This document shows positions 1 to 50,345 of a stretch of 64,000 nucleotides of DNA, piece by piece; positions within the stretch are counted from its first letter, which is position 1; every line of letters begins with the position of its first letter. Source of the stretch: a phage. Location: the NCBI GenBank assembly GCA_025677605.1, contig GCA_025677605.1_4110.1; one strand, 5' to 3'. The notes beneath the pieces were generated by a model. That model was not told the DNA's origin, did no database searches, and worked only from the letters and a program-made list of their open reading frames with translations. The translations under genes and the position numbers were made by a program.

Positions 1-40
1 ATATGGTTATAACATCGAACTAGGTAATTATAATTACTAT

Positions 41-8800: not shown

Positions 8801-8801
8801 C

Positions 8802-8833
8802 AAAAAAGGAGAGCCAATGGCTCTCCTTTTCTT
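8802..8833. terminator. Bidirectional intrinsic terminator between convergent genes
   Basis: A-run, then perfect hairpin GGAGAGCC-AAT-GGCTCTCC (about 8808-8826), then T-run; reads as hairpin plus U-tract on both strands. Confidence 0.8.
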
Positions 8834-8834
8834 T

Positions 8835-11120
8835 TTACACTACAGATGGGGTTTTAACTTGACGTTTTGGTTTGATACCCAACTTTCCGTTAATCACATC
8901 AAATGTTACGTTACCACCATTTACCAGTGAACCGCATAGCATTTCTTTAGCCAGAGGAACACGGATGTTCTGCTCGATTGTACGTTTCATTGGACGTGCA
9001 CCCATTCCAGGCTGAACACCATTTGCTTCTAACCATTCACGAGCCGCTTTAGTCAGTGTTACTTTCACGCCACGCTCTTTGATTTGCTCATTTAGACCAG
9101 CCATGAACTTATCAATAACGCTCTGGATAGCTTCACTGGATAGCTCATTAAACTTCACGATGCTATCGATACGGTTTAGGAATTCAGGTGGTAGGAAAGC
9201 TTTCACTGCCTTCTCCTGTGCTGTTTCACCACCACTCAAACCCAGACTACGTTTATTTGCATCTGCTGCACCCAAGTTGGTTGTCATAATAACTGTTACG
9301 TTGTTAAAGTATACAGTTTTACCCTGTGAACCAGTTAGGTGACCTTCATCCAGAACCTGTAGGAAGGTTAGCAGTACTTTAGGGTGTGCTTTTTCAATTT
9401 CGTCCAGCAGTAGAACTGCATTCGGGAATTGCTCAATTTTGTCGAGTAGCAGACCATTACCAGTATCGTGACCAACATAGCCAGGAGGTGAACCAATTAG
9501 TTTTGCAACGGTATGTTCTTGTGAAAATTCAGACATATCGAAGCGAATCAGTTCAGAACCCATTGCATCGGCTAGTGCTTTAGTGATTTCAGTTTTACCA
9601 GTACCAGACGGACCGACAAACATGAATGCACCCTGAACACTTGCTTTCTCACGAAGTCCTGCACGTGCAACCATTACGTTATCAACCAATTTCTCCACTG
9701 CTTCTTCTTGACCGAATACACGACTACGAAGTGCTGCTGGTAGTGACTTCATACGTTCAGTTTCAGTACAAGCTACTACGTTGATATCCAAGTTTGCAAT
9801 TCCCGCAACAACTTCTTGAATTGTGCGTAGTGAAATCACATTATCAGATTCATCGCGTGAACGTTTCTTAGCTGCTGCTGCATCCATAATGTCGATTGCT
9901 TTGTCTGGGAAGTGTTTGTTCTTCAGGAACTTATCACTCAAAGACACAATCGCATCCATTGCTTCAGTACTGAAAGTTACGTTATGGAATTTCTCATATG
10001 TACCTTGCAGACCATTTACAATCGCACGAGTTTCTTCAATAGTTGGCTCAACTACGTCAATTTTCATGAAACGACGAGTCAATGCACTATCTTTCTCGAT
10101 GTTTTTACGATATTCATCATAAGTAGTTGCACCGATTACACGAATCTCACCACGAGATAGTGCTGGTTTCAACATGTTACTCATATCCATTGAACCGTTG
10201 CTTGCAGAACCTGCACCTACCATGATATGGATTTCGTCAATGAACACGATTGTATTTTCACGTTTCTTCAGTTCTTTGAGAAGATTATCAATACGTTCTT
10301 CGAATTCACCACGATACTTAGTACCAGCGGTTAGTGCACCAACGTTAAGAGATAAAATCTCAATGTTTTGTAGATGTTCTGGTACATTACCATCAACAAT
10401 GGCTTGTGCTAGACCGTCAACAATCTGAGTTTTACCAACACCAGCTTCACCAGTAAGAATAGCATTCTTCTTAGTTTTACGAGCCAGAGTTTCAATTAGT
10501 GCATCCAGTTCTTTTTGACGACCAATCATTGGGTCCAGTTTACCATCTTTAGCCAACTGTGTTAGGTTGGTCGTGTAATCTTCGATTGATTTCTGTTTTG
10601 ATGCAGGTTGTTGTTGAGCCACCTTTTTCTCCCCAGTAGGTTCATCAGCGATGCTTTGTAGGTTAATTTCAGAATCAAGAGATTCTACATATTTCTGAAG
10701 AGTGCGGGCCGCTTCAGTACGAGTTACACCCTCTTCCAACAATGCTGCTTCTAATGCAGTGTTTGGGAATGACAAACATTCAAACAGTACAAAGAATGCA
10801 TCAATTGAGAAATCGTCACGTTTGAGTTGTTCGATGACAGATTTCTTAGATAGTTCTTGCATTACACGATTGACGATTAGTGTAGTGCGATTAACTTCTT
10901 CCCCCATAGTGCTGCGTGGTGCGTGTGGAACATTGGTATTTTTCAGATATTCAATCAAGCGGTCACGCACTTTCGTTGCGTCAACGTTCATTGTACCAAA
11001 TACATCAATAATGCTATCCACTGTCAGTACTGTAGCACTGATGTGATCGATTGTCAAGAAAGTATGACCCATAGAGGTTGCAAGGTCGTCGCTGCTTTTG
11101 AATAGCTGTGTTAAATTCAT
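8835..11120 (-). CDS. ClpA/ClpB-family double-AAA+ unfoldase
   Basis: N-terminal Clp_N-like repeats; D1 Walker A GEAGVGKT and Walker B FIDEIH; D2 Walker A GPSGTGKT with LLLDEIEKAHP; SLGL loop at the position of the ClpA IGL ClpP-docking tripeptide. Confidence 0.9.
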   Translation of the reverse strand: MNLTQLFKSSDDLATSMGHTFLTIDHISATVLTVDSIIDVFGTMNVDATKVRDRLIEYLKNTNVPHAPRSTMGEEVNRTTLIVNRVMQELSKKSVIEQLKRDDFSIDAFFVLFECLSFPNTALEAALLEEGVTRTEAARTLQKYVESLDSEINLQSIADEPTGEKKVAQQQPASKQKSIEDYTTNLTQLAKDGKLDPMIGRQKELDALIETLARKTKKNAILTGEAGVGKTQIVDGLAQAIVDGNVPEHLQNIEILSLNVGALTAGTKYRGEFEERIDNLLKELKKRENTIVFIDEIHIMVGAGSASNGSMDMSNMLKPALSRGEIRVIGATTYDEYRKNIEKDSALTRRFMKIDVVEPTIEETRAIVNGLQGTYEKFHNVTFSTEAMDAIVSLSDKFLKNKHFPDKAIDIMDAAAAKKRSRDESDNVISLRTIQEVVAGIANLDINVVACTETERMKSLPAALRSRVFGQEEAVEKLVDNVMVARAGLREKASVQGAFMFVGPSGTGKTEITKALADAMGSELIRFDMSEFSQEHTVAKLIGSPPGYVGHDTGNGLLLDKIEQFPNAVLLLDEIEKAHPKVLLTFLQVLDEGHLTGSQGKTVYFNNVTVIMTTNLGAADANKRSLGLSGGETAQEKAVKAFLPPEFLNRIDSIVKFNELSSEAIQSVIDKFMAGLNEQIKERGVKVTLTKAAREWLEANGVQPGMGARPMKRTIEQNIRVPLAKEMLCGSLVNGGNVTFDVINGKLGIKPKRQVKTPSVV

Positions 11121-29706: not shown

Positions 29707-29709
29707 AAA

Positions 29710-29736
29710 AAAAGGGAGACAAATGTCTCCCTTTTC
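29710..29736. terminator. Bidirectional intrinsic terminator
   Basis: A-run, GGGAGACA-AA-TGTCTCCC hairpin, T-run, between convergent fiber and thyA genes. Confidence 0.8.
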
Positions 29737-29738
29737 TA

Positions 29739-30668
29739 TTATACAGCCATTGGTGCTTTGATTGTTGGCATTGGATTGTAATTCAAAAGTTTGAAAGAAT
29801 CCATTGTAAAATCTTCAATATCGGTAATTGAAGGATCTAGCCATAATTCTGGTAAATCACGCGGTTCACGTTGAAGTTGTTCTTTAACTTGTTCTACGTG
29901 GTTTTTGTAAATGTGACAATCACCACCATTCCAAATAAACTCACCAACCTCAAGTCCAGTGATTTGTGCAATCATATGGGTTAGTAGTGAATAGCTACTA
30001 ATATTAAATGGTACTCCCAAAAATAGATCCGCACTGCGTTGATGTAGAATACAGCTTAGCTTACCCTGTACGACACAAAACTGTACGAAGCTATGGCAGG
30101 GTGGTAAAGTCATATCATCAAGCTCACCAACGTTCCAGGCACTTAGAATGTGACGACGACCGTATGGATCTGCTTTGATACCTTCAATGACTTGTTTTAG
30201 TTGGTCAGTAACACGACGCATAACAACACCATGTGAACCAGTATAATCAATTACTTTATAACCTTTATCTTTTAATTCTTGAATTTCTGCTGTACTGGCA
30301 CTGAATTTATAATCTTCCCATTCACGCCATTGCTTACCATAAACTGGTCCAAGCTCACCATTAGAATATCCAAGAGCTACACCTTGATTAAGGTAGTTGT
30401 CTGTCCAAATTGTTTTCTTTTCCCAATCACGAGTGCCGTGTAGAATTTCACACAAGCGACGCTCATCATGAGAACCTTCAATGAACCATAATAATTCTGA
30501 AGTCATTGCTTTCCAAGCTAAACGTTTGGTTGTCACTGCTGGAAAGCCTTGTTGAAGGTCAAAACGCATTTGTTGACCGATTAGTTTGATAGTACCTACA
30601 CCTGTACGATCAGTACTTTCTACGCCTTCATCCAGAATTTTTTGATATAGTTCTTGTAGTTGTTTCAT
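29739..30668 (-). CDS. thyA: Thymidylate synthase
   Basis: Colinear with E. coli ThyA: DRTGVGT, GPVYGKQWR, SAWNVGELD, catalytic LPPCH, QRSADLFLGVPFNI, IKAPMAV C-terminus. Continuous ORF, no intron. Confidence 0.93.
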   Translation of the reverse strand: MKQLQELYQKILDEGVESTDRTGVGTIKLIGQQMRFDLQQGFPAVTTKRLAWKAMTSELLWFIEGSHDERRLCEILHGTRDWEKKTIWTDNYLNQGVALGYSNGELGPVYGKQWREWEDYKFSASTAEIQELKDKGYKVIDYTGSHGVVMRRVTDQLKQVIEGIKADPYGRRHILSAWNVGELDDMTLPPCHSFVQFCVVQGKLSCILHQRSADLFLGVPFNISSYSLLTHMIAQITGLEVGEFIWNGGDCHIYKNHVEQVKEQLQREPRDLPELWLDPSITDIEDFTMDSFKLLNYNPMPTIKAPMAV

Positions 30669-30671
30669 TGT

Positions 30672-31262
30672 TCATCCTTGAAAAAATGTTGTAAAGTGCA
30701 TCATATGCTTTTCTTGTGCATTTCTTGAGCCTATTCCCGTCCAATTTCCATGCGGCTTAGGTACTGATGCGGTTTCTTCGAATTCTTTTAGTACTGGATT
30801 ATATGAATATACTTTTCTGTCATTAATGTCATAGCAGTATATTTCAGGATTATCAGTACTGTCAATATACATTTGTACAGCCCATGCAGTACCACCACTA
30901 ACTTGAGTAGGTGAAACCAGTGATGCCATACAATAAACTCTCTCTGTGTTTAAAATTTGATATCTATTACGAGCTAATAGATTATAAACATACGAGCCAG
31001 GTTTAGGTACACGGCGTTGTAATGAATAACATGCCATGTTTAGTTGATGTAGAATAGAACTATCATTCAAAATATAAGATGGGATTTCTAATATAGTACT
31101 TTCATCAACACTATGATTATGATTTTTGAATGAAAAGTTAATTACATTAAAACCATTTTCCATAGCATATAAAGTGAAAAAGCGGTCTGCACCTTGTGCA
31201 CCACCGCTATAAAATGTATTAGTTAATCCCTTGATTGCTTCATCAAGTTCATTTATCGTCAT
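30672..31262 (-). CDS. SLOG/DprA-like Rossmann-fold protein
   Basis: SGGAQGADRFF glycine-rich loop and later SGGTAWAV resemble SLOG-superfamily (DprA/LOG/YpsA) motifs. Weak, motif-only call. Confidence 0.55.
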   Translation of the reverse strand: MTINELDEAIKGLTNTFYSGGAQGADRFFTLYAMENGFNVINFSFKNHNHSVDESTILEIPSYILNDSSILHQLNMACYSLQRRVPKPGSYVYNLLARNRYQILNTERVYCMASLVSPTQVSGGTAWAVQMYIDSTDNPEIYCYDINDRKVYSYNPVLKEFEETASVPKPHGNWTGIGSRNAQEKHMMHFTTFFQG

Positions 31263-31575
31263 TCTTATGTTCCAAAGCAGACATTAATTCTTGTAATTTC
31301 TCATCCTCTAATGCGAAACTGGTTTCAAGGGCTGCCAAAATGACAGCACCAGCTTTGATTAAGGACTCTCTAAATTCATCGAATGATACATGCTTATCGG
31401 GGCGAGTTGCCCCTTCGAAGAGATAATAGGCACATAAGGAAGCCCAATCATTCTTTGTTTTAAGTGTATCAGATAATGTATTTGGATTATCTATTTGTTT
31501 CTGTCTTTCTTCAGTTATTTTGAGAATGATATCTTCTCTAGTAACTTTAGCCATTCTTACGCTCTGCAAAAACAA
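31249..31575 (-). CDS. Hypothetical small protein (start uncertain)
   Basis: 108-aa ORF overlapping the upstream gene by 29 nt; an internal Met (MAKVTRED) is a likelier start. Confidence 0.5.
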   Translation of the reverse strand: MFLQSVRMAKVTREDIILKITEERQKQIDNPNTLSDTLKTKNDWASLCAYYLFEGATRPDKHVSFDEFRESLIKAGAVILAALETSFALEDEKLQELMSALEHKNDDK

Positions 31576-32203
31576 GTTTTAGTTTCTCAATTGCTTTGGT
31601 TTGAGAAATACCTTCTGGAAGTTCAATGTAAAAAACTTTCTTATCAGAATCAGTTTTCACATTCGTTTCGTTGGGACGAAGAGAAGGTTCTAGGTTATAA
31701 GCACGCTCATAATGCTCTTTAGCTAGTTGATCATATTTTGCAGCAGTTTTTAGTAGTTCATCAACAATAGTTTCATCTTCGACTTTTGTATCTTGAACTT
31801 GTGGATTGAATGGGTTGTAATCTTTTACTTTACCATCTTCATGTTTTTTACTTTCATTACCGTCGATTGCATCATTCAGTACATCAAGTGAAATCTTGTT
31901 GTTACCGCCAGTGTGCATGTCAATATCACAAGTACGGACTTTACGTAGATATTGTAGATTGTGAAGAACATCTAGCATTTTACGACCATCGAGATAACCT
32001 ACTTGATGCATAACTTCCCAAAGTTCAACAGAAGCTTGTCCACGACCCATAACTAAATCGGTTACAGCAGATACATATGCTTCTGGAAGTGAGTCACGAT
32101 ACACAACAAGACAATGATCATGATCATCTGGAAGTGAACGCCAAACAACGAAAACACGAGAACCAGTATTACGAATTACACCTGTGTGACGAATAGCAGC
32201 CAT
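31547..32203 (-). CDS. Hypothetical protein
   Basis: 218-aa ORF; stop overlaps the upstream start region. Confidence 0.6.
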   Translation of the reverse strand: MAAIRHTGVIRNTGSRVFVVWRSLPDDHDHCLVVYRDSLPEAYVSAVTDLVMGRGQASVELWEVMHQVGYLDGRKMLDVLHNLQYLRKVRTCDIDMHTGGNNKISLDVLNDAIDGNESKKHEDGKVKDYNPFNPQVQDTKVEDETIVDELLKTAAKYDQLAKEHYERAYNLEPSLRPNETNVKTDSDKKVFYIELPEGISQTKAIEKLKLVFAERKNG

Positions 32204-32445
32204 TATTCTTCCCCTTCTGTACCAGCGGTATCTTGTGCTTGAGCAGCAGCTTCTTCACGTTCTTTGATATCAGCAAGTGCTTTATCAGCAAATTTAACGA
32301 ACTTGGAAACAATTGGTGCTACGTTCACTAGTTCATCAACTTGAAACGCATTACGTGCAACCGCAGATTCCATAATACGAGCAGCGTTGATTAGGTCAAC
32401 TAGGTCTAGGATTACTTCGTCTTGTGCATTGTTTTCAGTACTCAT
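32203..32445 (-). CDS. Hypothetical small acidic protein
   Basis: 80-aa ORF packed in the operon. Confidence 0.5.
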   Translation of the reverse strand: MSTENNAQDEVILDLVDLINAARIMESAVARNAFQVDELVNVAPIVSKFVKFADKALADIKEREEAAAQAQDTAGTEGEE

Positions 32446-32552
32446 ATATTACTCTCCATGTATGTTATTACAATTTCCATTATATCATAGTTAATTGGGT
32501 TGTCCCAATTATAAAATAAAAGAGAACGACGAATCGTTCTCTATATTTATTT

Positions 32553-34019
32553 TTACGAACGTTGGCGTTTTTTGTCCGCTTCATATTCGTAGTGAACAGT
32601 TTCACCAAATGGTGCTACTTTGTTCGGGTTACTGTGAATCACAAACAGTGTTTTACAGTAGTTAGGATCACCCCATGACTGCCACGGTTCACCATCGGTA
32701 AACATGATAAGCTGTTTAGGCTTATAATTGTCATGCTTCATGTGAACCCAAACTGCTTCAAAGTCAGTACCGCCACCACCTTTTACTGGATATTCAAGAA
32801 TCTTACGTTCTTCACCAGTTTTATAATCCATCACAGTATAAACTTCAGTATCAAATGTCATGATACGAATTTTAAACTGCTTGAATTGTTTAGTGATGCC
32901 TAGTACTTCACTGATGAAATCACGAAGCATATCTTCACTGATAGAGCCTGATGCATCGAGTGCAATTGCAATATCAATATCGTCATCTGGTTTCATGCCT
33001 GGGAAGATTGGATTCCCGTAGAATGAACCGTTAGAACCAAAACCAGCACCCCACGAACGGCGGCTTGGGCTTTGATAGGTCGCATCGGACTTCAACCAGC
33101 TACGAAGAGTACGTTGAAGTTTAGAACGCCAGTCAATTTTTGGTTCTTTAAAGTTATTGATCATACGAGCGATTTCAGCAGGAGTACCACCTGCACGAGC
33201 AGCATTCATCATTGCTGTTTTGAAATCGTCCATGTATTCACGTTTTTGTGCTTCAGATGCACCACCTTCACCATCTTGTGGTACATCGTGTTGGTCAATG
33301 GTAGTGCCTTTGCCTTTACCATTTTGGATATCACCAAAAGTACCGCGTGATTTACCTTCACCTTCACCACTACCAGATTGTGGTTGTCCTTCACCTTCAC
33401 CTTGTTCTTGTTTATCTTCTTCTTCTAGAAGAATATAAATCTCTTCTGCGGTCATACCATCATACTTCTTATCATACAACCATTGACTTTGAATCTTACC
33501 AATTTTTTCACGAACAATAATTTGGTTGATTGCATAGTCTGCTGCACGGTTGTATCGTTGTGGATCACGCATCCCACGACGAAGGAAGTGATCGTATGCA
33601 CAGTGAAGAATTTCATGACAGATAACTGCAATCAGGTTTTCATCAGTCAAACCTTCGGTCATTTCTTTCAATTGTTCTTCAGTTACTTCAGGATGCTTCT
33701 CACGAATTGCTTCTTCGTATGCTTCTTTCTTGCTTGGGTCTTGAATACCCATGATAAATTCTACGTTATAGAATAAATGTTTACCATCTACTGCTAAGGT
33801 ACGACACCATGTATTGTTTGCAACTGGACGCAGACGTGAAGCCAGTACACCAAAGAATGGAGCAGTTAACATCAGAGAAGTACGAGCAAGAATCAAACGG
33901 TCTTGGCATTCTTTCTGGAGTTGTGGTGTTACGTCGCTAAATTTCTTATCGGACATGATATTTCCTCGTTTAGTTAAGATAAAAGAAGGATACCATGTGG
34001 CATCCTTCTTGTCAAACAT
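32553..34019 (-). CDS. VWA-domain protein with N-terminal HExxH metallopeptidase-like motif
   Basis: HExxH in AVICHEILHCAYDH; Gly/Glu-rich linker; VWA MIDAS motif DASGS in IALDASGSISEDM. Confidence 0.85.
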   Translation of the reverse strand: MFDKKDATWYPSFILTKRGNIMSDKKFSDVTPQLQKECQDRLILARTSLMLTAPFFGVLASRLRPVANNTWCRTLAVDGKHLFYNVEFIMGIQDPSKKEAYEEAIREKHPEVTEEQLKEMTEGLTDENLIAVICHEILHCAYDHFLRRGMRDPQRYNRAADYAINQIIVREKIGKIQSQWLYDKKYDGMTAEEIYILLEEEDKQEQGEGEGQPQSGSGEGEGKSRGTFGDIQNGKGKGTTIDQHDVPQDGEGGASEAQKREYMDDFKTAMMNAARAGGTPAEIARMINNFKEPKIDWRSKLQRTLRSWLKSDATYQSPSRRSWGAGFGSNGSFYGNPIFPGMKPDDDIDIAIALDASGSISEDMLRDFISEVLGITKQFKQFKIRIMTFDTEVYTVMDYKTGEERKILEYPVKGGGGTDFEAVWVHMKHDNYKPKQLIMFTDGEPWQSWGDPNYCKTLFVIHSNPNKVAPFGETVHYEYEADKKRQRS

Positions 34020-34030
34020 TCTTTTAGTTA

Positions 34031-35356
34031 TTAACCAAGAGAACGTGCTTTGCGTACTAGGTCAGAGTACTTCATAACGAAGTCTTTGAACGCTGGAACA
34101 TCTTTGTACGCAATCGCTACCTTATGTTGAGTGATGGTACGAATTGCTAGTACTGCCAGTTCTGCCTGAGTTTCGGAGAAGTTACGGTCCAGGAAGGTGA
34201 TGAAGTTGTTGCACAGCTTGCCCCACTCTTCAACTGGAAGACGTTGTTCTTGCTTCTCATTGTACAGGTCGATAATTTTATAAACCAGATTCAGAGAGAT
34301 GAAGTAGTTCGCAGAAATATCCAGCGTTGCATCAATCTCTTTAATCTCACCCTGTAGGATGGACATAGTATCTGGTAGTTTAGATACGTTTTCTACGTAT
34401 TCGATATATTCAGTTGCTACACCTTCACCAACACGACCAGCGATTAGAGCACGGAACACTTCTTTATCAATGTTGTTGCCTTTCTTCAGGTCTTCGTAGC
34501 GTGCTACTGCTTCCCATGAACGTGGAGAAGTACCACCACTGTGAGAAGGATCTTGTGGGCTAAGGGTGTTGAAGTACTTAGCACCAGTGTTGTTGATGAA
34601 CGCAACAGTACCTGGGTTCAAACGCTTAGCAATCGCGTAATCGTCAATCCAATCTTGATGGTAAGGAACCATTTCGATGTGGGTCATACGGTCACGTAGT
34701 GGCGTTGCCAGAGAGAACGTTACGCCGCCATCAGTTTCACGGTTACCTGCTGCGAGAATCAGTGCAGTCTTAGGTAGCTTCATCTCACCAACACAACGGT
34801 CGAGGATTAGCTGATAAGACGCTGCCTGTACAATCGGCATAGCAGAGTTAATTTCGTCAAACAGGATAACACCTTTCCAATCTGGAGACAGTTTCAGTAC
34901 TTTAGGTGCTGCCCATACAACTGCTGTTTCAGCGATATAATCTTTAGCTGTTTCCAGTTCAGATTCAATCAGTTGTTTGCCATCCATATCCAGGAACACT
35001 TTTTCAGGGACTGGGATACCACGTAGGTCACTTGGTTCAATCTGTGACAAACGGAAGTCGATGAAGTTAGTGTCTTGGTCAATCAGTTTTGCTTCAAACG
35101 CTGCCAGTTCGCGGCGAAGTGCATCAGCATTTTCAGTATCAACTTCAATTTGTTGTTTCATGAACTCGATTTTAGCCAAGTTATCCTTACGAAGAGGATA
35201 GTTCTCGTCAGCGTATTGACGTGCAATCGCAGACTTACCGATACCAGGGCTACCCCAAATCATCAGACTATCCTGAATTTTATCTGCCAGAGCCATAGCC
35301 ATTTTTGCTTTCTTAGGAGTCAGTTTTACGTTCAGGATATCTTGTTGTTCGCTCAT
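34031..35356 (-). CDS. MoxR-like AAA+ ATPase
   Basis: Walker A GSPGIGKS, Walker B ILFDEIN, ~100-aa insertion between them; immediately upstream of the VWA gene; AAGGA RBS. Confidence 0.85.
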   Translation of the reverse strand: MSEQQDILNVKLTPKKAKMAMALADKIQDSLMIWGSPGIGKSAIARQYADENYPLRKDNLAKIEFMKQQIEVDTENADALRRELAAFEAKLIDQDTNFIDFRLSQIEPSDLRGIPVPEKVFLDMDGKQLIESELETAKDYIAETAVVWAAPKVLKLSPDWKGVILFDEINSAMPIVQAASYQLILDRCVGEMKLPKTALILAAGNRETDGGVTFSLATPLRDRMTHIEMVPYHQDWIDDYAIAKRLNPGTVAFINNTGAKYFNTLSPQDPSHSGGTSPRSWEAVARYEDLKKGNNIDKEVFRALIAGRVGEGVATEYIEYVENVSKLPDTMSILQGEIKEIDATLDISANYFISLNLVYKIIDLYNEKQEQRLPVEEWGKLCNNFITFLDRNFSETQAELAVLAIRTITQHKVAIAYKDVPAFKDFVMKYSDLVRKARSLG

Positions 35357-44089: not shown

Positions 44090-46753
44090 TTATTGAGTCT
44101 TTTCAATACGAATCGGTACGTAAATGAAGTTGATAGACTTAGTAGGTTGGATTGCGATATCCATCCAAAGTTCGTTACGGTCAATACGCTCGGAGGTGTT
44201 GTTACTTTCATCACAAACAACTGCGAAGTTATATAGACCTTGTTGTTGAACGATTTCAGCTAGGAAGCTATTAACTACACCACTGAATTCCTGACGAGTA
44301 CTTGGAGTATTCAAACGGAATAGGAATGGTTCAGAAATAATTTCTAGTTGACGACGAATATAAACAACTAAACGTGCAACGTTAACACGGCTTAATGCGG
44401 AAGTTTGGTTAGGAGATAGTGTTTTATCACCATATACTAGCAAACCACGATTTGGACGCATTGCAATTGGGTTAATGTTGTTGGTGTACATTACATCACG
44501 TTGACCTTGGTTATAAACTACTGGCTGATATTCACCTTCATCATTGATGAAGCCAACAGATGCAGCGTTTGTTACAACACCACGAGTAGTACCAGCAGGT
44601 GGATACCATACATAACTTACGCTGTCGCTGTATGCATAGGTACGCATTGCAATAGTACTGCCAGGAACTGCAACTTCTTCACCATCAACGTTAGTACTTA
44701 AGCACCAGCCCATATATTGAGCAGCATAATCATATGCAGTAGTACGACCAACATCACCATTACTTGGTGCGTTATTTGCGTTAGTTGCCCATTGTTGAAC
44801 AGCATTACCGTTACCAGTTGGGTTCAAACGTGCTGGAACATCAGTTACGATGAAAGCAGTTTCTTTACGGTCGGTGTTTAGGGTCACACACTCATCTAAA
44901 CATTCAACATAACCAGGAACAGAAATTAGGTTAAAGTCAATGAATTCAGAACGGATATCATCGTTTCCAACGATAACTGCATTTAGTGCTTCTACAACCA
45001 ATTGGCGTTGAGCAGCACGACCAAACAAGCCATTCCCATCAAGACCAACACCACTGACAACATGCCAAAATCCATCGATCATTTTCTTAACCACACCTTC
45101 AGTATTTCCAAGGTCGATTGCGAGCATACCGTTTTGGTATAGAGCAGCCGCTGGAACTTGTTCAGGGAAGTTAAAGTCTTTGAAGATCATACCGTTTAGT
45201 GTACTTTGATCAGTACTGTCAAGTTTAACCCACTCACCATTAACATTACGATAGAAATCGTAGCCATCAATACCTTGTGATTTAGGAGAAACCCAGATTG
45301 TACGGTCAGCAGCAGGTTCGTCAACTTGCACATATTTGTTAGCTTCGTCAACTTCAACCCATTTGTCATTAGCAACATCAGCTAGATACATGGTAACATT
45401 TAGATTATCAGAATTACTGAAATCATACCATAGAGTACCTTCTTTAGCGATACTACGTGGAACGTTACTATCAACACGGAAATTGTTAACGTTAATCAAA
45501 GCATAGTTATTACTATCAACAGTTAGTTTTGCAAATTCATCTTCATCAAATAGTACACTACCACTTTGTGCAGTTTTGAAACTATAACCTTTAGAACTAT
45601 TAATTACTAGGCCACCATTACTTTCTCTTTTAAATTTAAAGCCATCATTGATTAGTTCAGATGAAGCATTTAGATTGTCAAGAATAGTTTGGGTGTTGAT
45701 AACACCACCTAGTGCAACTGCTAGTACTTTAACAGTTTTGGTCAAATAAGAGAAAGTCAAGTAAGAATCTTGGTCTGCTTGAACAACTACAGTTTCACCA
45801 ACTGGAATCGCTGGAGCACTTAGTGCTGGTAGTTTTGCACTTTGAATATAGAAAGAGAAACTCTTACTATCCCAGTCAAAACGAGTAGCGATGAAGCTGT
45901 TATTTAGAACACCACTTTTGGATTCAATTTCTTGGAAACTGTTACCAGTGAATGCTTGTACTTGATTCCAAACTTGAGTTAGGGATGCATAACGTTTAAT
46001 AACAAAACGAGTACCGAAGTAATTAGCACCATTTTGAGTGTAACCATCACGAATCCAGATATTACCTTTCTCAACTGTATTACCTACTGGTACTTTGTTG
46101 ATTGGTGAAAGGTAAGTTTCAACTTGAACTAGACCAGATGCTGCACGTTTGTACATTAGCATTTGACCATTGCTTGGCTTATAACGTAGTACTAGATCGT
46201 CAACGTTAATACCAACTAGGCTAACATCACTAACTTCTTCAGCACTAACAATAGTTACTGGTTTTAGTTGCCAGTCATAGAAACTGGTTGGTGAATCCAC
46301 TTTAGAAACATATGCTTCAACTTGTGATTGAGCAACATCTAGCCACAATGTACCGTTTGGTACTGGACCAGTTGGAGCAGTAGCAGAAGGTGATAGTTGT
46401 GCCAAGTCGATATCTGCACGTACAACATAAGCACGGTTAGTAATACCAAGGTAAGAATAAGCAGCATGTAGGCCGTATTCGTTTAGTTCGTCACCTTGAA
46501 CAACTGAACCATTACTTGATTGAAAAATCGGTGTGCCGTAAGTGTCTAGTGAACTTTTCTGAGAAGTTAGAAGTTGCAACTTACCAGCATTTGCTTTTGT
46601 GGTTCCAGCAGCGATTGTGTTGCTACCTGGTACTAATTTATCTTCTGCGGTAGCAATGATGAATAGTGGTACTGTTCCAGGTGCGGAAGCAGTGCTCATA
46701 CTTTCATCAGTAACTGAAATGGAAACGCCAGGCGATAGGAGTTCTCCTGCCAT
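44090..46753 (-). CDS. Tail sheath protein
   Basis: 887-aa ORF; N-terminal LLSPGV and NRAYVVRADID blocks and hydrophobic C-terminal region as in contractile sheath proteins; AATAAATA about 50 nt upstream. Confidence 0.88.
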   Translation of the reverse strand: MAGELLSPGVSISVTDESMSTASAPGTVPLFIIATAEDKLVPGSNTIAAGTTKANAGKLQLLTSQKSSLDTYGTPIFQSSNGSVVQGDELNEYGLHAAYSYLGITNRAYVVRADIDLAQLSPSATAPTGPVPNGTLWLDVAQSQVEAYVSKVDSPTSFYDWQLKPVTIVSAEEVSDVSLVGINVDDLVLRYKPSNGQMLMYKRAASGLVQVETYLSPINKVPVGNTVEKGNIWIRDGYTQNGANYFGTRFVIKRYASLTQVWNQVQAFTGNSFQEIESKSGVLNNSFIATRFDWDSKSFSFYIQSAKLPALSAPAIPVGETVVVQADQDSYLTFSYLTKTVKVLAVALGGVINTQTILDNLNASSELINDGFKFKRESNGGLVINSSKGYSFKTAQSGSVLFDEDEFAKLTVDSNNYALINVNNFRVDSNVPRSIAKEGTLWYDFSNSDNLNVTMYLADVANDKWVEVDEANKYVQVDEPAADRTIWVSPKSQGIDGYDFYRNVNGEWVKLDSTDQSTLNGMIFKDFNFPEQVPAAALYQNGMLAIDLGNTEGVVKKMIDGFWHVVSGVGLDGNGLFGRAAQRQLVVEALNAVIVGNDDIRSEFIDFNLISVPGYVECLDECVTLNTDRKETAFIVTDVPARLNPTGNGNAVQQWATNANNAPSNGDVGRTTAYDYAAQYMGWCLSTNVDGEEVAVPGSTIAMRTYAYSDSVSYVWYPPAGTTRGVVTNAASVGFINDEGEYQPVVYNQGQRDVMYTNNINPIAMRPNRGLLVYGDKTLSPNQTSALSRVNVARLVVYIRRQLEIISEPFLFRLNTPSTRQEFSGVVNSFLAEIVQQQGLYNFAVVCDESNNTSERIDRNELWMDIAIQPTKSINFIYVPIRIEKTQ

Positions 46754-46847: not shown

Positions 46848-47474
46848 TCAGTTTTTCGTATAAATAATATCCAGTGCTTTGTTTTCTAGGTCTTTTATAG
46901 TTCCATTATTCTTGATAATATAATGTGGGTTGTTAATACCAATCCATGCCCATTCAGATTCATGTACTGATTCCAGTTCAACTGGTTTCATTTGGATATC
47001 ACCTTTATTGTATGATGCTGCTAGACCATACCAGAATGGTAAATTGCGTTGAACTTCAATGATGATACCGTTATTTTCACGAATCATTTTCAATTCATTT
47101 GGAAAACGACAATCAGTAATGATAATGTTACCTTCTATGTCCATCATAGAACGTTCTAAACTGAATACCCAAATGTCATTATGCAAATAACGACGAACTA
47201 CATTAGTACCGTAATTTTGCAGTACCCAACGTGGTGAAACATCATCACGTCCTAATTTATTACACCAGTACTGATCCGGTTGTTCACGAATAGCACGACC
47301 TTCTTTAGTAGTTCCTTCTAGCATTTCCCTGTCCCAGCCAAAAATAGCTGCAACTGAATCTTTCAGGTTCTTTGCAAACGACATACGGGTATATCCATTA
47401 TCGATGAATGTTTTAGCGTATGTATCTTTACCACTTCCTATTGAGCCATTGATGGCTACGATTTTTCTTTCCAT
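46848..47474 (-). CDS. Deoxynucleoside monophosphate kinase-like protein
   Basis: P-loop INGSIGSGKDT resembling the T4 gp1 N-terminus; ~200 aa. Confidence 0.7.
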   Translation of the reverse strand: MERKIVAINGSIGSGKDTYAKTFIDNGYTRMSFAKNLKDSVAAIFGWDREMLEGTTKEGRAIREQPDQYWCNKLGRDDVSPRWVLQNYGTNVVRRYLHNDIWVFSLERSMMDIEGNIIITDCRFPNELKMIRENNGIIIEVQRNLPFWYGLAASYNKGDIQMKPVELESVHESEWAWIGINNPHYIIKNNGTIKDLENKALDIIYTKN

Positions 47475-47476
47475 AG

Positions 47477-47791
47477 TTACACTTCCTTCATATATTCATC
47501 ACCAACTAAGCTTCTAACTATATCAATAATAGTTTCATTACCGTTGTATACTGACACATATACAACATAAAATGTTTTTCCATTATCATCCCTGCATATA
47601 CTTGCCCATGCGTTAATTACATCCCTGGTGAATACATCAACTAATGCATTTTTGATAAATCGCCAGTACTGTTCTGATTCGAAATAATTGTCGCTTAATT
47701 TTCCACATCTGAATTTTGCATATTCAATTGTCATTATATCACCGTATATGAAAAAAGACCCCAACATGGAGTCTTTTTTTATTTTAACCAA
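47477..47791 (-). CDS. Hypothetical protein, start uncertain
   Basis: The annotated 5' end contains a terminator-like hairpin (about 47755-47776) and a GTGATATAATGA element overlapping an internal Met codon (47734-47732); true start probably internal. Confidence 0.45.
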   Translation of the reverse strand: MVKIKKDSMLGSFFIYGDIMTIEYAKFRCGKLSDNYFESEQYWRFIKNALVDVFTRDVINAWASICRDDNGKTFYVVYVSVYNGNETIIDIVRSLVGDEYMKEV

Positions 47792-48575
47792 TAATCATAC
47801 CAAGTGGTTCACCACCATCTTTGTATCTCTTCAACTGTTCTTTAAGTTGTTCCTGGAGTTGCATACCTTCATTACGAAGTGTATCACCATCCATTGAAAA
47901 TGTTCCTTGTGGTCCTGGTAAAGAAGCAAACTTAGCACGGTTGCGACCTAACATAATCATCGCTTCCGATAAAGCCCAATCACGAAGCCACGGATAACTC
48001 ATTTGACGTTGGAATAGTAGTGGTTCTGGGATGTTATGATACACATGAACCAGTACTTCTTCTGTGCCGCGAATATCACGGTCAATAACCAGTTTCTTAG
48101 TCATAGGGTTAAACTGGAAAATAATCTCACGTCCAAACATACGTCCTACTAATTCCTGAAACTGGAAACTGAAGTCATAGGTTGTTAAATCATAACCACC
48201 AGCGTTGCGAGCAGACGTTAGTAGATATGTGTTTGTAAATGCAATTGAAAATGGATCAACTGAGTTACCACTACCAGAACTCAAATAACCATTACCATAA
48301 CGATAAATTTTCTTAACAATTTCCACTTCAGTTGGTAACATGTAAACTGATTGAGAATCATAGAATTTCATGCTTAAAAAAGCTTCTTCTTTTGATGCAG
48401 AACTCCATGCTCTGTAGTTTGATACCGCATTATCGATTGCGATTTCTAATTGTCCATCAGTAATTTCAACTTCAACAGCACCAGCACCCAACATTTGTGT
48501 AATCACATCTTTTAATTTTTCACGGTGATCGTAATTTGGGGCATCTGGATTTCCACCCATATAGTCATATGACAT
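47784..48575 (-). CDS. Hypothetical protein
   Basis: 263-aa ORF. Confidence 0.7.
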   Translation of the reverse strand: MSYDYMGGNPDAPNYDHREKLKDVITQMLGAGAVEVEITDGQLEIAIDNAVSNYRAWSSASKEEAFLSMKFYDSQSVYMLPTEVEIVKKIYRYGNGYLSSGSGNSVDPFSIAFTNTYLLTSARNAGGYDLTTYDFSFQFQELVGRMFGREIIFQFNPMTKKLVIDRDIRGTEEVLVHVYHNIPEPLLFQRQMSYPWLRDWALSEAMIMLGRNRAKFASLPGPQGTFSMDGDTLRNEGMQLQEQLKEQLKRYKDGGEPLGMIIG

Positions 48576-48626
48576 AAAAAAGCACCTCTTTAATGTTTAT
48601 ATACATTATTTAGAGGTGCTATTGAT

Positions 48627-48839
48627 TTAGCTTAGTCTATCGTACCAACAACGCAAATAAACTAAGTTAACAAAGTGTTCAGTATCTATCATATCAAGGA
48701 AACCAAATATACTAACTGAATATATATGTTTCCCATCATGATAGTATATTATATAGTCTTGATTTGGCTCAATCCAGTAATGAGTATTTCCGACTATTAA
48801 TTTATGATTATAAACACCTGTTAAAAGATGATCGCTCAT
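48627..48839 (-). CDS. Hypothetical small protein
   Basis: 70-aa ORF. Confidence 0.45.
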   Translation of the reverse strand: MSDHLLTGVYNHKLIVGNTHYWIEPNQDYIIYYHDGKHIYSVSIFGFLDMIDTEHFVNLVYLRCWYDRLS

Positions 48840-49216
48840 TAACTTATCTTTGTACAGTTAGTGACAATGTGTTCAATATCTTTTTTAGTGAAGGGGCCGA
48901 GTACTAGAACCTCTTCCCCATTACCAAACATACTTAGTGGTACTGACTGCTGATTCGCAAGATATTCAATCTGCATCATTTCATCCATGTCATCTGCTTC
49001 ATAGACAACTTGTTCCAGTTCATTGTCTTTAATCCATGAATCCCAATGAGCTTTAAACTGTTTGGCTTCATATTCTTGAACATAGTTAGGGGATGCTGGG
49101 TTGTACTGATGTAGCATAGTCATGCCAGCCATAACCAATTCTTTTGGTGATGGGGTTTTACCTTTCAGTACTACGATAGCTTGAATAGTTTTTGCTTTCA
49201 CTTCATTAGCAGCCAT
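48839..49216 (-). CDS. Hypothetical protein, weak PTH2-like peptidyl-tRNA hydrolase resemblance
   Basis: IQAIVVLKGK N-terminus and VLVLGPFTKKDIEHIV C-terminus loosely resemble PTH2; weak. Confidence 0.55.
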   Translation of the reverse strand: MAANEVKAKTIQAIVVLKGKTPSPKELVMAGMTMLHQYNPASPNYVQEYEAKQFKAHWDSWIKDNELEQVVYEADDMDEMMQIEYLANQQSVPLSMFGNGEEVLVLGPFTKKDIEHIVTNCTKIS

Positions 49217-49228
49217 TTTATACCTCTA

Positions 49229-49537
49229 TTATAGGATGATTTTGTTGTCAGGGACAATCAACGCTGGCTTATCTTCTAGAGTCTTAATTGCTTCAACATA
49301 AGCATCAACCAGTGCAGGGTTTGCATCACTGATACTGATGATGTTAGATTTGAAGAAAATAACACCTTTTTCTGAACTAATAAATTCTAGATAATCACGT
49401 AGAATGATTTCACCTTTTTCGTCAGTACCTAGCTGTGCTGGGTAGTTAACTACTACTGCTTCTGGAGCATCGGTTTGTAGAACTGCTAGTACTGGGCCAA
49501 CGTTGTTGATGTTTAGTAGTTTAACGGTAATAGTCAT
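49229..49537 (-). CDS. Hypothetical protein (start trimmed to internal ATG)
   Basis: Track ORF 49229-49687 overlaps the upstream gene by 130 nt; ATG at 49537 (MTITVKLL) has an AAGGA RBS just after the upstream stop. Confidence 0.5.
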   Translation of the reverse strand: MTITVKLLNINNVGPVLAVLQTDAPEAVVVNYPAQLGTDEKGEIILRDYLEFISSEKGVIFFKSNIISISDANPALVDAYVEAIKTLEDKPALIVPDNKIIL

Positions 49538-49556
49538 TTTTGTCAAGTCCTTTTGT

Positions 49557-50069
49557 TTATTTGAGAATATATAAATGTTTTTCAGCATTAACCAGCCTGT
49601 GGTCAATGATTTCTTTGATAACGTTCCAGTTACCACCGCCCAAATCGGCTCCAATTTTCGGAAAGTGTACATGAACATTTCGTTCAATTTTACAGAAAAA
49701 ATTCAAATGCATGAAAACGTCATCAATGGCATCATAGCTTACGTATTTTGCACCATCAGTTCCGTACCATTTTTGAGTAATGCAGTTTGCGATAATCAAA
49801 TCATCATTAATTGCTGAATATGCAATTTGTCCGGTTCTTAGAAAACCCATTCTCTTTTCATATTCTTTATAATCATCATATGCCTTTGGGTACTGCATTC
49901 TGAGTTCTTTTGCAAAACCAGAACCCATTTTACCTTGAGCATTACAACCATGAGCTATAATATGTAATGCAGTATGATCATCAGTTACAGTACTGAATAA
50001 TTCAAACAGATTACCGTGATGTTCATGTATCATGTGTTCTCCGAAAAGAAAAGGACTCGAATATATCAA
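49557..50069 (-). CDS. Putative macro-domain (ADP-ribose binding/processing) protein
   Basis: HIIAHGCNAQGKMGSGFAKEL and FPKIGADLGGGNW resemble the two glycine-rich macro-domain loops; motif-only call. Confidence 0.5.
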   Translation of the reverse strand: MIYSSPFLFGEHMIHEHHGNLFELFSTVTDDHTALHIIAHGCNAQGKMGSGFAKELRMQYPKAYDDYKEYEKRMGFLRTGQIAYSAINDDLIIANCITQKWYGTDGAKYVSYDAIDDVFMHLNFFCKIERNVHVHFPKIGADLGGGNWNVIKEIIDHRLVNAEKHLYILK

Positions 50070-50087
50070 GTCCTTTATATTATTAGG

Positions 50088-50345
50088 TTATTCTTCTTCA
50101 CCGAAACGAATTTTCTTCAATTCTTTTCGATGCTTTCTTGCTATTGTACTTTTGTGAAGTCTATTACTACGTTTTGTGTCTTTTTCAATATACCAGCTAT
50201 CTTCTGGTGGATTGAAGTCACAATAACCATCTTCCGTAATTGTTCCTAAGAATGCAGATTTTTTAGGAATATTTGTTTGAGCTTTAGTCTGAAATTGACC
50301 TTTTGCTAATTGTTCACGAAAACTGAGCATAATAGTATCTCCCAA
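50088..50345 (-). CDS. Hypothetical small basic protein
   Basis: 85-aa ORF. Confidence 0.45.
   Translation of the reverse strand: MGDTIMLSFREQLAKGQFQTKAQTNIPKKSAFLGTITEDGYCDFNPPEDSWYIEKDTKRSNRLHKSTIARKHRKELKKIRFGEEE

What the first reader, a model, noticed from the sequence alone, without database searches (positions are those of the whole stretch)
30672..31262. SLOG-like Rossmann protein immediately upstream of thymidylate synthase
The SGGAQGADRFF loop resembles SLOG-superfamily nucleotide-processing or DNA-binding proteins. Its co-transcription with thyA hints at a role in nucleotide salvage or DNA base modification, which could connect to the CAGTACTG signal if the genome is modified.
Basis: inference. 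Interest (0 to 1): 0.45.

Follow-up and report, generated by a model that had tools for sequence, protein, structure and literature searches.

The report
Permuted SLOG nucleotide-binding protein beside thyA
A small jumbo-phage gene just upstream of thymidylate synthase really does encode a SLOG-type (DprA/LOG/YpsA-like) Rossmann protein, one of a large uncharacterised phage family. Its gene neighbours point to deoxynucleotide metabolism, and nothing ties it to DNA base modification.

Summary
Window 30672..31262 (-) is a 196-aa ORF ending 3 nt before thyA (29739..30668, -), inside a five-gene unit bounded by a sigma-70-like promoter and a strong terminator. The window is an Asteriusvirus jumbo coliphage, 98.8% identical to phage A4.

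The family is large: 2,787 clusters at 50% identity. The thyA adjacency is synteny of the Rak2-like clade only (21/21 loci against 0/54 distant loci). In other huge phages the recurrent neighbour is a T4 gp1-like dNMP kinase (36/54 loci).

Best guess: a phosphate/nucleotide-binding module working with dNMP enzymes. ssDNA binding remains a serious rival.

The proposed link to DNA modification or CAGTACTG is not supported. A close relative's DNA cuts normally with ten restriction enzymes, and the motif does not track the family.

The parts
30672..31262 (-). 196-aa SLOG-fold protein (A4_565 homologue; PHROG 768)
31176..31208 (-). Glycine-rich loop SGGAQGADRFF (residues 19-29), containing the GxD motif (G24-A25-D26)
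   Evidence: Translation check. S19, G20, G21, A22, G24 and D26 are >=90% conserved. The loop follows strand 16-19 and starts helix 25-35.
30957..30971 (-). RNRYQ: invariant R98, N99 and Q102 at the end of the family-specific helical insert
   Evidence: Invariant columns in A1; helix 91-103.
30870..30896 (-). Second glycine loop GGTAWAVQM (residues 123-131). It is the equivalent of LOG PGGxGTxxE and DprA GG(S/T), but without a Glu.
   Evidence: G124, T125, W127 and A128 are invariant; G123, Q130 and M131 are >=90% conserved. It precedes helix 125-135.
30723..30737 (-). GIGSR (residues 176-180): a DprA-type G-S/T-R strand-loop placed at the C-terminus, which is the circular permutation point
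   Evidence: G176, I177, G178 and R180 are invariant. Strand 174-178 plus helix 184-191 are the last elements. After moving this segment to the N-terminus, DprA Pfam hits rise from 4/56 to 10/25, and DprA 3uqz aligns across GSR-helix-SGxAxGxD, though at a non-significant E=0.23.
29739..30668 (-). Thymidylate synthase ThyA, the last gene of the unit
   Evidence: PF00303 E=6.5e-103; phrog_160.
31249..31575 (-). Upstream ORF of about 101-108 aa, unknown function, overlapping the SLOG start by 14 nt
   Evidence: ORF. phrog_2831. Homologues occur only in Rak2-like phages and carry no Pfam domain. No PDB match with a profile.
31547..32203 (-). 218-aa ORF of unknown function in the same unit
   Evidence: phrog_15894 E=2.5e-111; syntenic across the Rak2-like clade.
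32203..32445 (-). 80-aa ORF, first gene of the unit
   Evidence: phrog_13789; preceded by GGAGAG and the promoter-like site.
32479..32508 (-). Sigma-70-like promoter with extended -10 (TTGGGA-18-TATAAT, TG upstream)
   Evidence: Consensus scan and direct reading. Prediction only.
29708..29737 (-). Intrinsic terminator directly after thyA (13-bp stem, T-run)
46848..47474 (-). The phage's own T4 gp1-like dNMP kinase, 16 kb away and directly upstream of the tail sheath gene. In other huge phages this is the position where the SLOG gene sits.
   Evidence: hmmsearch with the DNMK profile built from SLOG neighbours: E=3.7e-76. ORFs and A4 annotation.

Best explanation
The gene encodes a single-domain SLOG-superfamily Rossmannoid protein closest to the cpYpsA/YAcAr branch. 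It is circularly permuted, so the strand-loop that opens DprA, LOG and YpsA (G-S/T-R) closes the chain here (GIGSR). Three glycine-rich loops (SGGAxGAD, GGTAW, GIGSR) lie at the C-terminal ends of the strands. Together with invariant R98, N99 and Q102 and conserved R83, Q130 and D134 from a family-specific helical insert, they should form one pocket that grips a phosphate-bearing nucleotide. I infer that the ligand is a (deoxy)nucleoside monophosphate or a closely related small nucleotide. I also infer that the protein works in the phage's deoxynucleotide supply line, next to ThyA here and next to the T4 gp1-like dNMP kinase in other huge phages. It would act as a binding, hand-off or regulatory subunit, or as a processing enzyme whose chemistry differs from LOG, because the LOG catalytic Glu is missing. 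Shown here: the fold, the motifs, the permutation, the operon layout and the gene associations. Inferred: the ligand and the role.

For: Motifs: the invariant and near-invariant residues all map to strand ends and helix starts.

Permutation. Two family members also give sub-threshold hits to Pfam cpYpsA.

Context: ThyA lies downstream in 21/21 Rak2-like loci. A dNMP kinase (PF21448, phrog_139) lies within 4 kb in 36/54 distant loci. After dereplication that is 19 of 32 SLOG clusters at 70% identity and 7 of 16 at 50% identity. The kinase is usually directly upstream and co-directional, often overlapping the SLOG gene. It persists through inversions of the flanks and through an order swap (L025, L040). 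A single-copy gene in a genome of 150-580 kb would by chance fall within 4 kb of another gene only a few percent of the time (my estimate). In the window the kinase sits directly against the sheath gene, without the SLOG gene between them. The SLOG gene therefore appears beside two different dNMP enzymes in different lineages.

Other hints of small-molecule nucleotide chemistry: one fusion to a histidine phosphatase, and a dCMP deaminase about 3 kb away in one locus, L004.
Against: No ligand or activity was tested. The dNMP-kinase linkage is strong but phylogenetically correlated, because these are related huge phages with the kinase embedded in the neck-sheath module. It could partly reflect an insertion hot spot. 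It is absent from 9 of 16 deep SLOG clusters. ShosTA shows that a DprA-like SLOG protein can be paired with a nucleotide-metabolic enzyme and still act by binding DNA (PMC11961720). Structural relatives of this domain are fused to helicases. The cellular homologues pair with a WYL regulator and topA, which points towards DNA. The only near-invariant acidic residues are D26 and D134, so an enzymatic role has no obvious catalytic residue.
Confidence: 0.4

Rival explanations
1. It is a DprA-like single-stranded-DNA-binding protein, as current database annotation says. The Rossmannoid pocket with the G-S-R arginine and the other conserved arginines would bind the ssDNA backbone. The protein would then help recombination, replication restart or protection of phage ssDNA.
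Confidence: 0.3
2. It binds or processes an NAD+/ADP-ribose-derived nucleotide, as predicted for the YpsA clade and shown for the ThsA and TRPM2 SLOG domains. It could act in phage NAD metabolism, or as a counter-defence binder or degrader of host immune nucleotide signals.
For: The GxD motif that defines the YpsA-clade ligand site is conserved (G24-A25-D26; PMC6459960). One giant multidomain phage protein that contains the domain also carries a NADAR domain (P0216). Scattered neighbours include Tpt1/KptA twice, NAMPT plus NMNAT-Nudix, PRTase_3 plus HAD, a PARP-like gene, NAD synthase, Tad3 and Acb1. The domain occurs inside 2.4-4 kaa multidomain phage proteins.
Against: Each of these associations is seen only once or twice, and jumbo-phage genomes are full of such auxiliary genes. 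None recurs like the dNMP kinase. There is no PADLOC match. No known phage sponge has this fold (my knowledge). The window operon contains no NAD- or ADPR-related gene.
Confidence: 0.15
3. It is an enzyme of a DNA base-modification pathway, working on dNMPs or on DNA, and is connected to the enriched CAGTACTG motif.
For: It is co-transcribed with thyA. CAGTACTG is strongly enriched, 29 copies against about 1 expected. One copy lies inside the ORF at 30854..30861.
Against: fEgEco12 DNA was digested by ten enzymes with the predicted patterns. The motif enrichment is restricted to Rak2-like phages, whereas the SLOG family is far wider: 2 motif copies in 560 kb of distant SLOG-bearing loci. The LOG and NDT-type catalytic Glu is absent. 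No modification enzyme recurs as a neighbour; DNA methylases were seen in only 2-3 of 129 neighbour families.
Confidence: 0.04

Closest known systems
cpYpsA-type SLOG protein, PDB 3imk ('putative molybdenum carrier protein', Syntrophus aciditrophicus). That 3imk belongs to Pfam PF12694 cpYpsA is from my memory and was not verified here.
   Different: Only 14-18% identity. HMMER cannot connect the two, even with a family profile. The window protein has no PF12694 hit. The phage family has its own helical insert (about residues 45-103) with invariant R98, N99 and Q102. 3imk has no known function either.
YAcAr / DUF2493 (Pfam PF10686), a phage- and plasmid-borne SLOG family
   Same: It is the only Pfam family hit by the window protein (E=7.5e-4, residues 6-44), and 22/56 relatives hit it. 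The two share the GGAxGAD loop. From memory, they also share an 'RN' motif. One relative, fEgEco12, is annotated 'DUF2493 domain-containing protein'.
   Different: All hits are below the gathering score (19.7 against 28.2 bits) and cover only the N-terminal 40 residues. As I recall, DUF2493 proteins start with the G-x-R strand, so they are not permuted.
DprA/Smf and ShosA (DNA-processing protein A family, PF02481)
   Different: The order of elements is permuted. There are no SAM or C-terminal DNA-binding domains. PF02481 is never reached at threshold. The genomic partners are dNMP enzymes, not competence or recombination genes.
LOG / PpnN nucleotide 5'-monophosphate phosphoribohydrolases
   Different: The PGGxGTxxE catalytic Glu is replaced (GGTAWAVQM). 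By my manual register the Glu position is Q130, which is conserved but is E in a few members such as P0065. No LOG Pfam hit.
YpsA (B. subtilis, PDB 2nx2) and the nucleotide-sensing SLOG domain of ThsA
   Different: No sequence-level match. The NAD/ADPR links are sporadic. No effector domain is attached in the window protein.

Membership tests
SLOG superfamily (SMF/DprA-LOG) | Rossmannoid alpha/beta fold whose nearest structural neighbours are SLOG members | tested here: met
SLOG superfamily (SMF/DprA-LOG) | Glycine-rich loop after a core strand (GGGxxGxMG in LOG, SGxAxGxD in DprA), plus a second GG(T/S) loop before a helix | tested here: met
   SGGAxGAD (S19, G20, G21, A22, G24, D26 >=90% conserved) and GGTAWA (G124, T125, W127, A128 invariant).
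SLOG superfamily (SMF/DprA-LOG) | Match to a curated SLOG Pfam model at its gathering score | tested here: not met
   YAcAr 19.7 bits against a cut-off of 28.2. DprA and cpYpsA hits are sub-threshold and occur in relatives only. No NCBIfam hit.
cpYpsA (circularly permuted YpsA-like SLOG, PF12694) | Circular permutation: the first strand-helix of the canonical SLOG core lies at the C-terminus | tested here: met
   GIGSR strand 174-178 plus helix 184-191 are the last elements. Artificially un-permuted sequences hit DprA more often, 10/25 against 4/56, and align to DprA 3uqz across GSR-helix-SGxAxGxD at a non-significant E=0.23. The top structural hit is 3imk. No coordinate superposition was inspected.
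cpYpsA (circularly permuted YpsA-like SLOG, PF12694) | Sequence match to PF12694 at gathering score | tested here: not met
   No hit for the window protein. Only P0207 and P0220 hit, at E=8.5e-4 and 3.7e-3, 19.5 and 17.4 bits against 26.2.
YpsA clade of SLOG | GxD/E ligand-binding signature (G53/E55 in B. subtilis YpsA; PMC6459960) | tested here: met
   G24-A25-D26, with G24 and D26 >=90% conserved.
DprA / Smf | PF02481 match and multi-domain architecture (SAM domain, Rossmann domain, C-terminal DML1/winged helix) | tested here: not met
   No PF02481 hit for the window protein, and 4/56 relatives hit sub-threshold. The 196-aa chain is a single domain.
DprA / Smf | ssDNA binding and RecA loading | not testable with these tools
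   Needs EMSA and genetics. Only the precedent from ShosA is available.
LOG phosphoribohydrolases | PGGxGTxxE motif with catalytic Glu | tested here: not met
   The equivalent segment is (S)GGTAWAVQM. No invariant Glu is present. The position is Q130 by my manual register.
Phage DNA hypermodification pathway enzyme | Virion DNA carries non-canonical bases, and the gene co-occurs with modification genes or a target motif | tested here: not met
   DNA of the relative fEgEco12 was cut as predicted by 10 enzymes (PMC13070987). CAGTACTG enrichment does not follow the gene family. DNA methylases were seen in only 2-3 of 129 neighbour families. Direct LC-MS on this phage is not available.

The most novel reading that the evidence does not exclude
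The family could be an undescribed component of phage deoxynucleotide metabolism. It would be a circularly permuted SLOG protein that acts on or channels dNMPs together with the T4 gp1-type dNMP kinase, and with ThyA in Rak2-like phages. One possibility is a new, non-LOG type of dNMP-processing or gate-keeping activity that shapes which nucleotides enter phage DNA. It is conserved in thousands of huge-phage lineages and is reused inside giant multidomain phage proteins.
Probability: 0.2. Interest if true: 0.65.

Novelty: new member of a known kind. Interest (0 to 1): 0.35.

Why it matters
Jumbo phages carry hundreds of genes of unknown function. This one belongs to a large, well-conserved family: 2,787 clusters at 50% identity, with eleven invariant residues. 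It folds with very high confidence and has two independent genomic links to enzymes that handle deoxynucleoside monophosphates. If it proves to be a nucleotide-handling factor, it would add a step or a regulator to the classic T4-type dNTP supply pathway, and it would give the first biochemical function to the cpYpsA/YAcAr branch of the SLOG superfamily. If instead it binds ssDNA, the current 'DprA-like' label would be validated for a permuted minimal domain. Either answer needs only simple binding assays. The analysis also removes a tempting but unsupported link to DNA hypermodification.

Tried and rejected
1. Direct and profile HMMER searches against PDB sequences found nothing significant. 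Only structure comparison connected the family to SLOG proteins.

2. The NCBIfam and PADLOC scans of the window protein found no hits.

BFVD was used instead.

4. Burroughs et al. 2015 (PMC4678834), which defines the SLOG families, is not held. Statements about how cpYpsA and YAcAr are defined therefore rest on Pfam names, on PMC6459960 and on my memory.

5. I tested whether thyA linkage is a family-wide functional signal. It is not: it is clade-specific synteny.

6. I looked for function in the translationally coupled upstream ORF of 101-108 aa. Its homologues occur only in Rak2-like phages, have no Pfam domain, and give no PDB match even with a profile. The 218-aa ORF was likewise uninformative.

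7. A Pfam survey of 129 non-recurrent neighbour families in distant loci found no second recurrent partner besides the dNMP kinase.

8. Net charge and pI gave no discrimination between DNA binding and small-ligand binding (family median pI 6.95).

9. A weak phmmer alignment of a relative to nucleoside 2-deoxyribosyltransferase (2a0k, E=1) is not significant. It was used only to note that the NDT catalytic Glu position is Ala in this family.

10. Literature searches for cpYpsA, YAcAr, DUF2493, 'DprA-like' plus phage plus SLOG, and 'SLOG domain' with phage-encoded sponges found no characterisation of this family.

Full report
**What is there.** The window is a segment of an Asteriusvirus (Rak2-like) jumbo coliphage. 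The stretch 29700-32500 is 98.8% identical to Escherichia phage A4 (ON286972) and about 82% identical to 121Q, PBECO4, phAPEC6, fEgEco12 and others. The finding's coordinates, 30672..31262, are exactly a minus-strand ORF of 196 aa. It equals A4_565, annotated 'hypothetical protein'. Other records name the homologue 'DprA-like DNA recombination-mediator protein' or 'DUF2493 domain-containing protein'. SGGAQGADRFF is residues 19-29.

The ORF stops 3 nt before the ATG of a canonical ThyA (29739..30668, PF00303 E=6.5e-103). Its own start is overlapped by 14 nt by the upstream ORF.

Reading the minus strand, the layout is as follows:
- the VWA gene stop;
- a hairpin (32542..32521);
- a sigma-70-like promoter with an extended -10 (32508..32479);
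- GGAGAG;
- an 80-aa ORF, a 218-aa ORF, a 101-108-aa ORF, the SLOG ORF and thyA;
- a 13-bp-stem terminator (29737..29708).

The 'immediately upstream of and co-transcribed with thyA' part is therefore confirmed at the level of sequence organisation. No transcript data were examined.

**Is it SLOG?** Sequence evidence alone is weak but consistent.
- Pfam YAcAr (PF10686, 'YspA, cpYpsA-related SLOG family') matches at E=7.5e-4, 19.7 bits, below the 28.2-bit cut-off.
- 22 of 56 relatives hit YAcAr and 4 hit DprA, all below threshold.
- PHROG 768 'DprA-like' matches at E=4.2e-25.
- NCBIfam, PADLOC and PDB-sequence searches find nothing.

**Anatomy.** Across relatives 29-75% identical to the window protein, the invariant residues are R98, N99, Q102, G124, T125, W127, A128, G176, I177, G178 and R180. 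S19, G20, G21, A22, G24, D26, R83, P86, G123, Q130 and M131 are >=90% conserved. In the model these lie at strand ends and helix starts:
- strand 16-19, then SGGAxGAD, then helix 25-35;
- strand 108-112 (plus a short hairpin), then GGTAW, then helix 125-135;
- strand 174-178 (GIGSR), then helix 184-191;
- R83, R98, N99 and Q102 come from a helical insert at about residues 45-103.

I infer a single ligand pocket from these positions. I could not inspect the model's coordinates, so the pocket itself is not shown.

The G-S/T-R strand opens the Rossmann domain in DprA, but here it is the last strand. That makes the domain a circular permutant. As a test I moved residues 166-196 to the N-terminus in 25 family members. 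DprA Pfam hits rose from 4/56 (best E 6e-3) to 10/25 (best E 2.6e-4). S. pneumoniae DprA (3uqz) then appeared with an alignment running GSR, helix, SGxAxGxD, although at a non-significant E=0.23. Two family members also give sub-threshold hits to Pfam cpYpsA.

The LOG catalytic motif PGGxGTxxE is not conserved. The segment reads GGTAWAVQM. By my manual alignment the Glu position is Q130, which is E in a few members. The YpsA-clade 'GxD/E' ligand motif (PMC6459960) is present as G24-A25-D26.

**Family size and architectures.** An exhaustive profile search finds 2,787 representatives (50%-identity clusters) at E<=1e-3, and 772 at E<=1e-30. Most are stand-alone proteins of 175-210 aa. Other architectures are:
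- a subset with an unassigned C-terminal extension of about 100 aa;
- one fusion to a histidine phosphatase (P0150);
- several copies embedded in 2.4-4 kaa phage proteins, one of which carries a NADAR domain.

The nearest structures in BFVD are from Agrobacterium phage Atu_ph07, from giant proteins of crAss-like phages, and from a helicase fusion.

**Context.** I fetched 79 viral loci, called ORFs and compared them, together with loci already fetched.

The block ATPase, VWA, 80 aa, 218 aa, SLOG, [optional small gene], thyA is conserved in all 21 loci whose SLOG protein is >=50% identical: 19 viral loci plus the two Serratia phage BF-type records L005 and L006. These are Asteriusvirus, Eneladusvirus and relatives. 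The 101-108-aa ORF was detected in 15 of these 21 loci. No ThyA lies within 5 kb in any of the 54 analysable distant loci. The thyA adjacency is therefore synteny of one clade.

In the distant loci the one strongly recurrent non-structural neighbour is a T4 gp1-like deoxynucleoside monophosphate kinase (PF21448 E=7.7e-10; phrog_139 E=6e-47).
- It lies within 4 kb in 36/54 loci.
- It is usually directly upstream, co-directional and often overlapping.
- In some loci the pair forms an isolated two-gene plus-strand cassette between minus-strand structural genes.
- The order is swapped in L025 and L040.
- The same arrangement appears in independent metagenomic contigs.

After dereplication, 19 of 32 SLOG clusters at 70% identity and 7 of 16 at 50% identity keep the kinase nearby. 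The window phage has the orthologous kinase at 46848..47474 (-), directly against the tail-sheath gene. That is the slot where other huge phages carry kinase, SLOG, sheath. The gene is thus found beside two different dNMP-handling enzymes in different lineages.

A Pfam survey of 129 other neighbour families found nothing else recurrent. Single occurrences included Nudix, NAD synthase, NAMPT, Tad3, Acb1, a dATP/dGTP pyrophosphohydrolase and UvsY. Tpt1, PRTase_3 plus HAD and a PARP-like gene were each seen once or twice.

A cellular branch exists in Flavobacterium, Myroides and Paenimyroides chromosomes. There the gene is immediately followed by an HTH-WYL-WCX regulator in most of the 25 loci, with topA next in the core arrangement.

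**Interpretation.** The protein is a small, permuted SLOG module built to grip a phosphate-bearing nucleotide or nucleic acid. I favour a mononucleotide ligand and a role in deoxynucleotide supply, at confidence 0.4. The reasons are the two independent links to dNMP enzymes, the very specific and deeply conserved polar pocket, and the closer structural kinship to the cpYpsA, LOG and YpsA side than to DprA. Because the LOG glutamate is missing, I expect binding, regulation, hand-off or a different chemistry, rather than LOG-type N-glycosidase activity.

The main rival, at 0.3, is DprA-like ssDNA binding. It is supported by:
- the shared motifs;
- the helicase fusions of related domains;
- the WYL and topA context of the cellular branch;
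- the ShosTA precedent, where a DprA-like SLOG protein paired with a nucleotide-metabolic enzyme binds DNA.

A third reading, at 0.15, is binding of NAD- or ADP-ribose-derived nucleotides, possibly in counter-defence. It rests on the GxD motif, the NADAR fusion and scattered NAD-related neighbours.

**The DNA-modification idea.** CAGTACTG really is enriched: 29 copies against about 1 expected. AGTACT occurs 127 times in the window, and TTCAGTAC, TCAGTACT and CAGTACTG are the three commonest 8-mers. The enrichment is shared by Rak2-like relatives. However, only 2 copies occur in 560 kb of distant SLOG-bearing phage loci, so it does not follow the gene family. The flanks of the 29 sites share little beyond a preceding T/TT. 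[quoted passage not shown] That argues against bulk base replacement. Site-specific modification of AGTACT has not been tested. I rate the modification link at about 0.04.

**Novelty and verdict.** The gene is a member of a known superfamily. Some databases already label it 'DprA-like' or 'DUF2493', so it is not categorically new. What this analysis adds:
- firm structural support for the SLOG fold;
- the circular permutation;
- the size of the family;
- the finding that the thyA link is clade-specific, while a dNMP-kinase link is the broader signal.

I found no paper that characterises the family. The SLOG classification paper could not be read. Interest is moderate: this is a tractable uncharacterised family with a testable hypothesis, not a surprise.

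Noticed in passing
window, 29 sites (e.g. 595, 5591, 30854, 63081); also L001, L005-L023, L030: The palindrome CAGTACTG occurs 29 times against about 1 expected. AGTACT (the ScaI site) occurs 127 times in 64 kb, and TTCAGTAC, TCAGTACT and CAGTACTG are the three commonest 8-mers of the window. The enrichment is shared by Rak2-like relatives, but only 2 copies occur in 560 kb of distant huge-phage loci. Flanks are not conserved beyond a preceding T/TT. The cause is unexplained.
   Followed up: partly
window 46848..47474 (-) and 44090..46753 (-): The phage's T4 gp1-like dNMP kinase sits directly upstream of the tail-sheath gene. In many other huge phages the SLOG gene lies between these two genes, so the SLOG gene seems to have changed place in one lineage or the other.
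   Followed up: partly
window 32553..34019 (-) and 34031..35356 (-): An AAA ATPase (441 aa) and a VWA/DUF2201-type protein (488 aa) lie upstream of the thyA unit. The pair is syntenic with it throughout the Rak2-like clade.
   Followed up: no
L086-L106 (e.g. L090 4974..5534, 5541..6470, 6577..9117): Flavobacterium, Myroides and Paenimyroides chromosomes carry a homologue about 30% identical. It is immediately followed by an HTH-WYL-WCX regulator and, in the core arrangement, by topoisomerase I. The SLOG-WYL pair also persists in other local contexts.
   Followed up: partly
L081 and L085 (ORF 21..9743); proteins P0183, P0216, P0223, P0238, P0246, P0249, P0252: The same domain is embedded in giant phage proteins of 2.4-4 kaa. 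P0216 also carries a NADAR domain near its C-terminus.
   Followed up: partly
P0088, P0101, P0111, P0115, P0116, P0125 (C-terminal ~100 aa); L026, L042: A subset of homologues has a conserved C-terminal extension (hPIxxPKxGDIIYVPD...GGWAxVxRV...) with no Pfam match.
   Followed up: no
L112 1408..2909; L114 3456..3959; L002 7052..7597; L113 2545..2841; L004 7413..10703: NAD- or ADP-ribose-related genes occur near some distant homologues, each only once or twice: PRTase_3 plus a HAD hydrolase, Tpt1/KptA twice, a PARP-like gene, and NAMPT plus NMNAT-Nudix. Tad3, Acb1 and NAD synthase appeared once each in the neighbour survey.
   Followed up: no
window about 47500..50100 (-) (A4 annotation under hit H26): The A4 record annotates a macro-domain protein close to the dNMP kinase. 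The fEgEco12 record annotates a phosphatase and an aminoacyl-tRNA hydrolase in the same stretch.
   Followed up: no
window 30836..30865 (-): A promoter-like site (TTGACA-18-TATACT, 11/12 matches) lies inside the SLOG ORF and overlaps the CAGTACTG copy at 30854..30861. It could be an internal promoter for thyA or a chance match.
   Followed up: no
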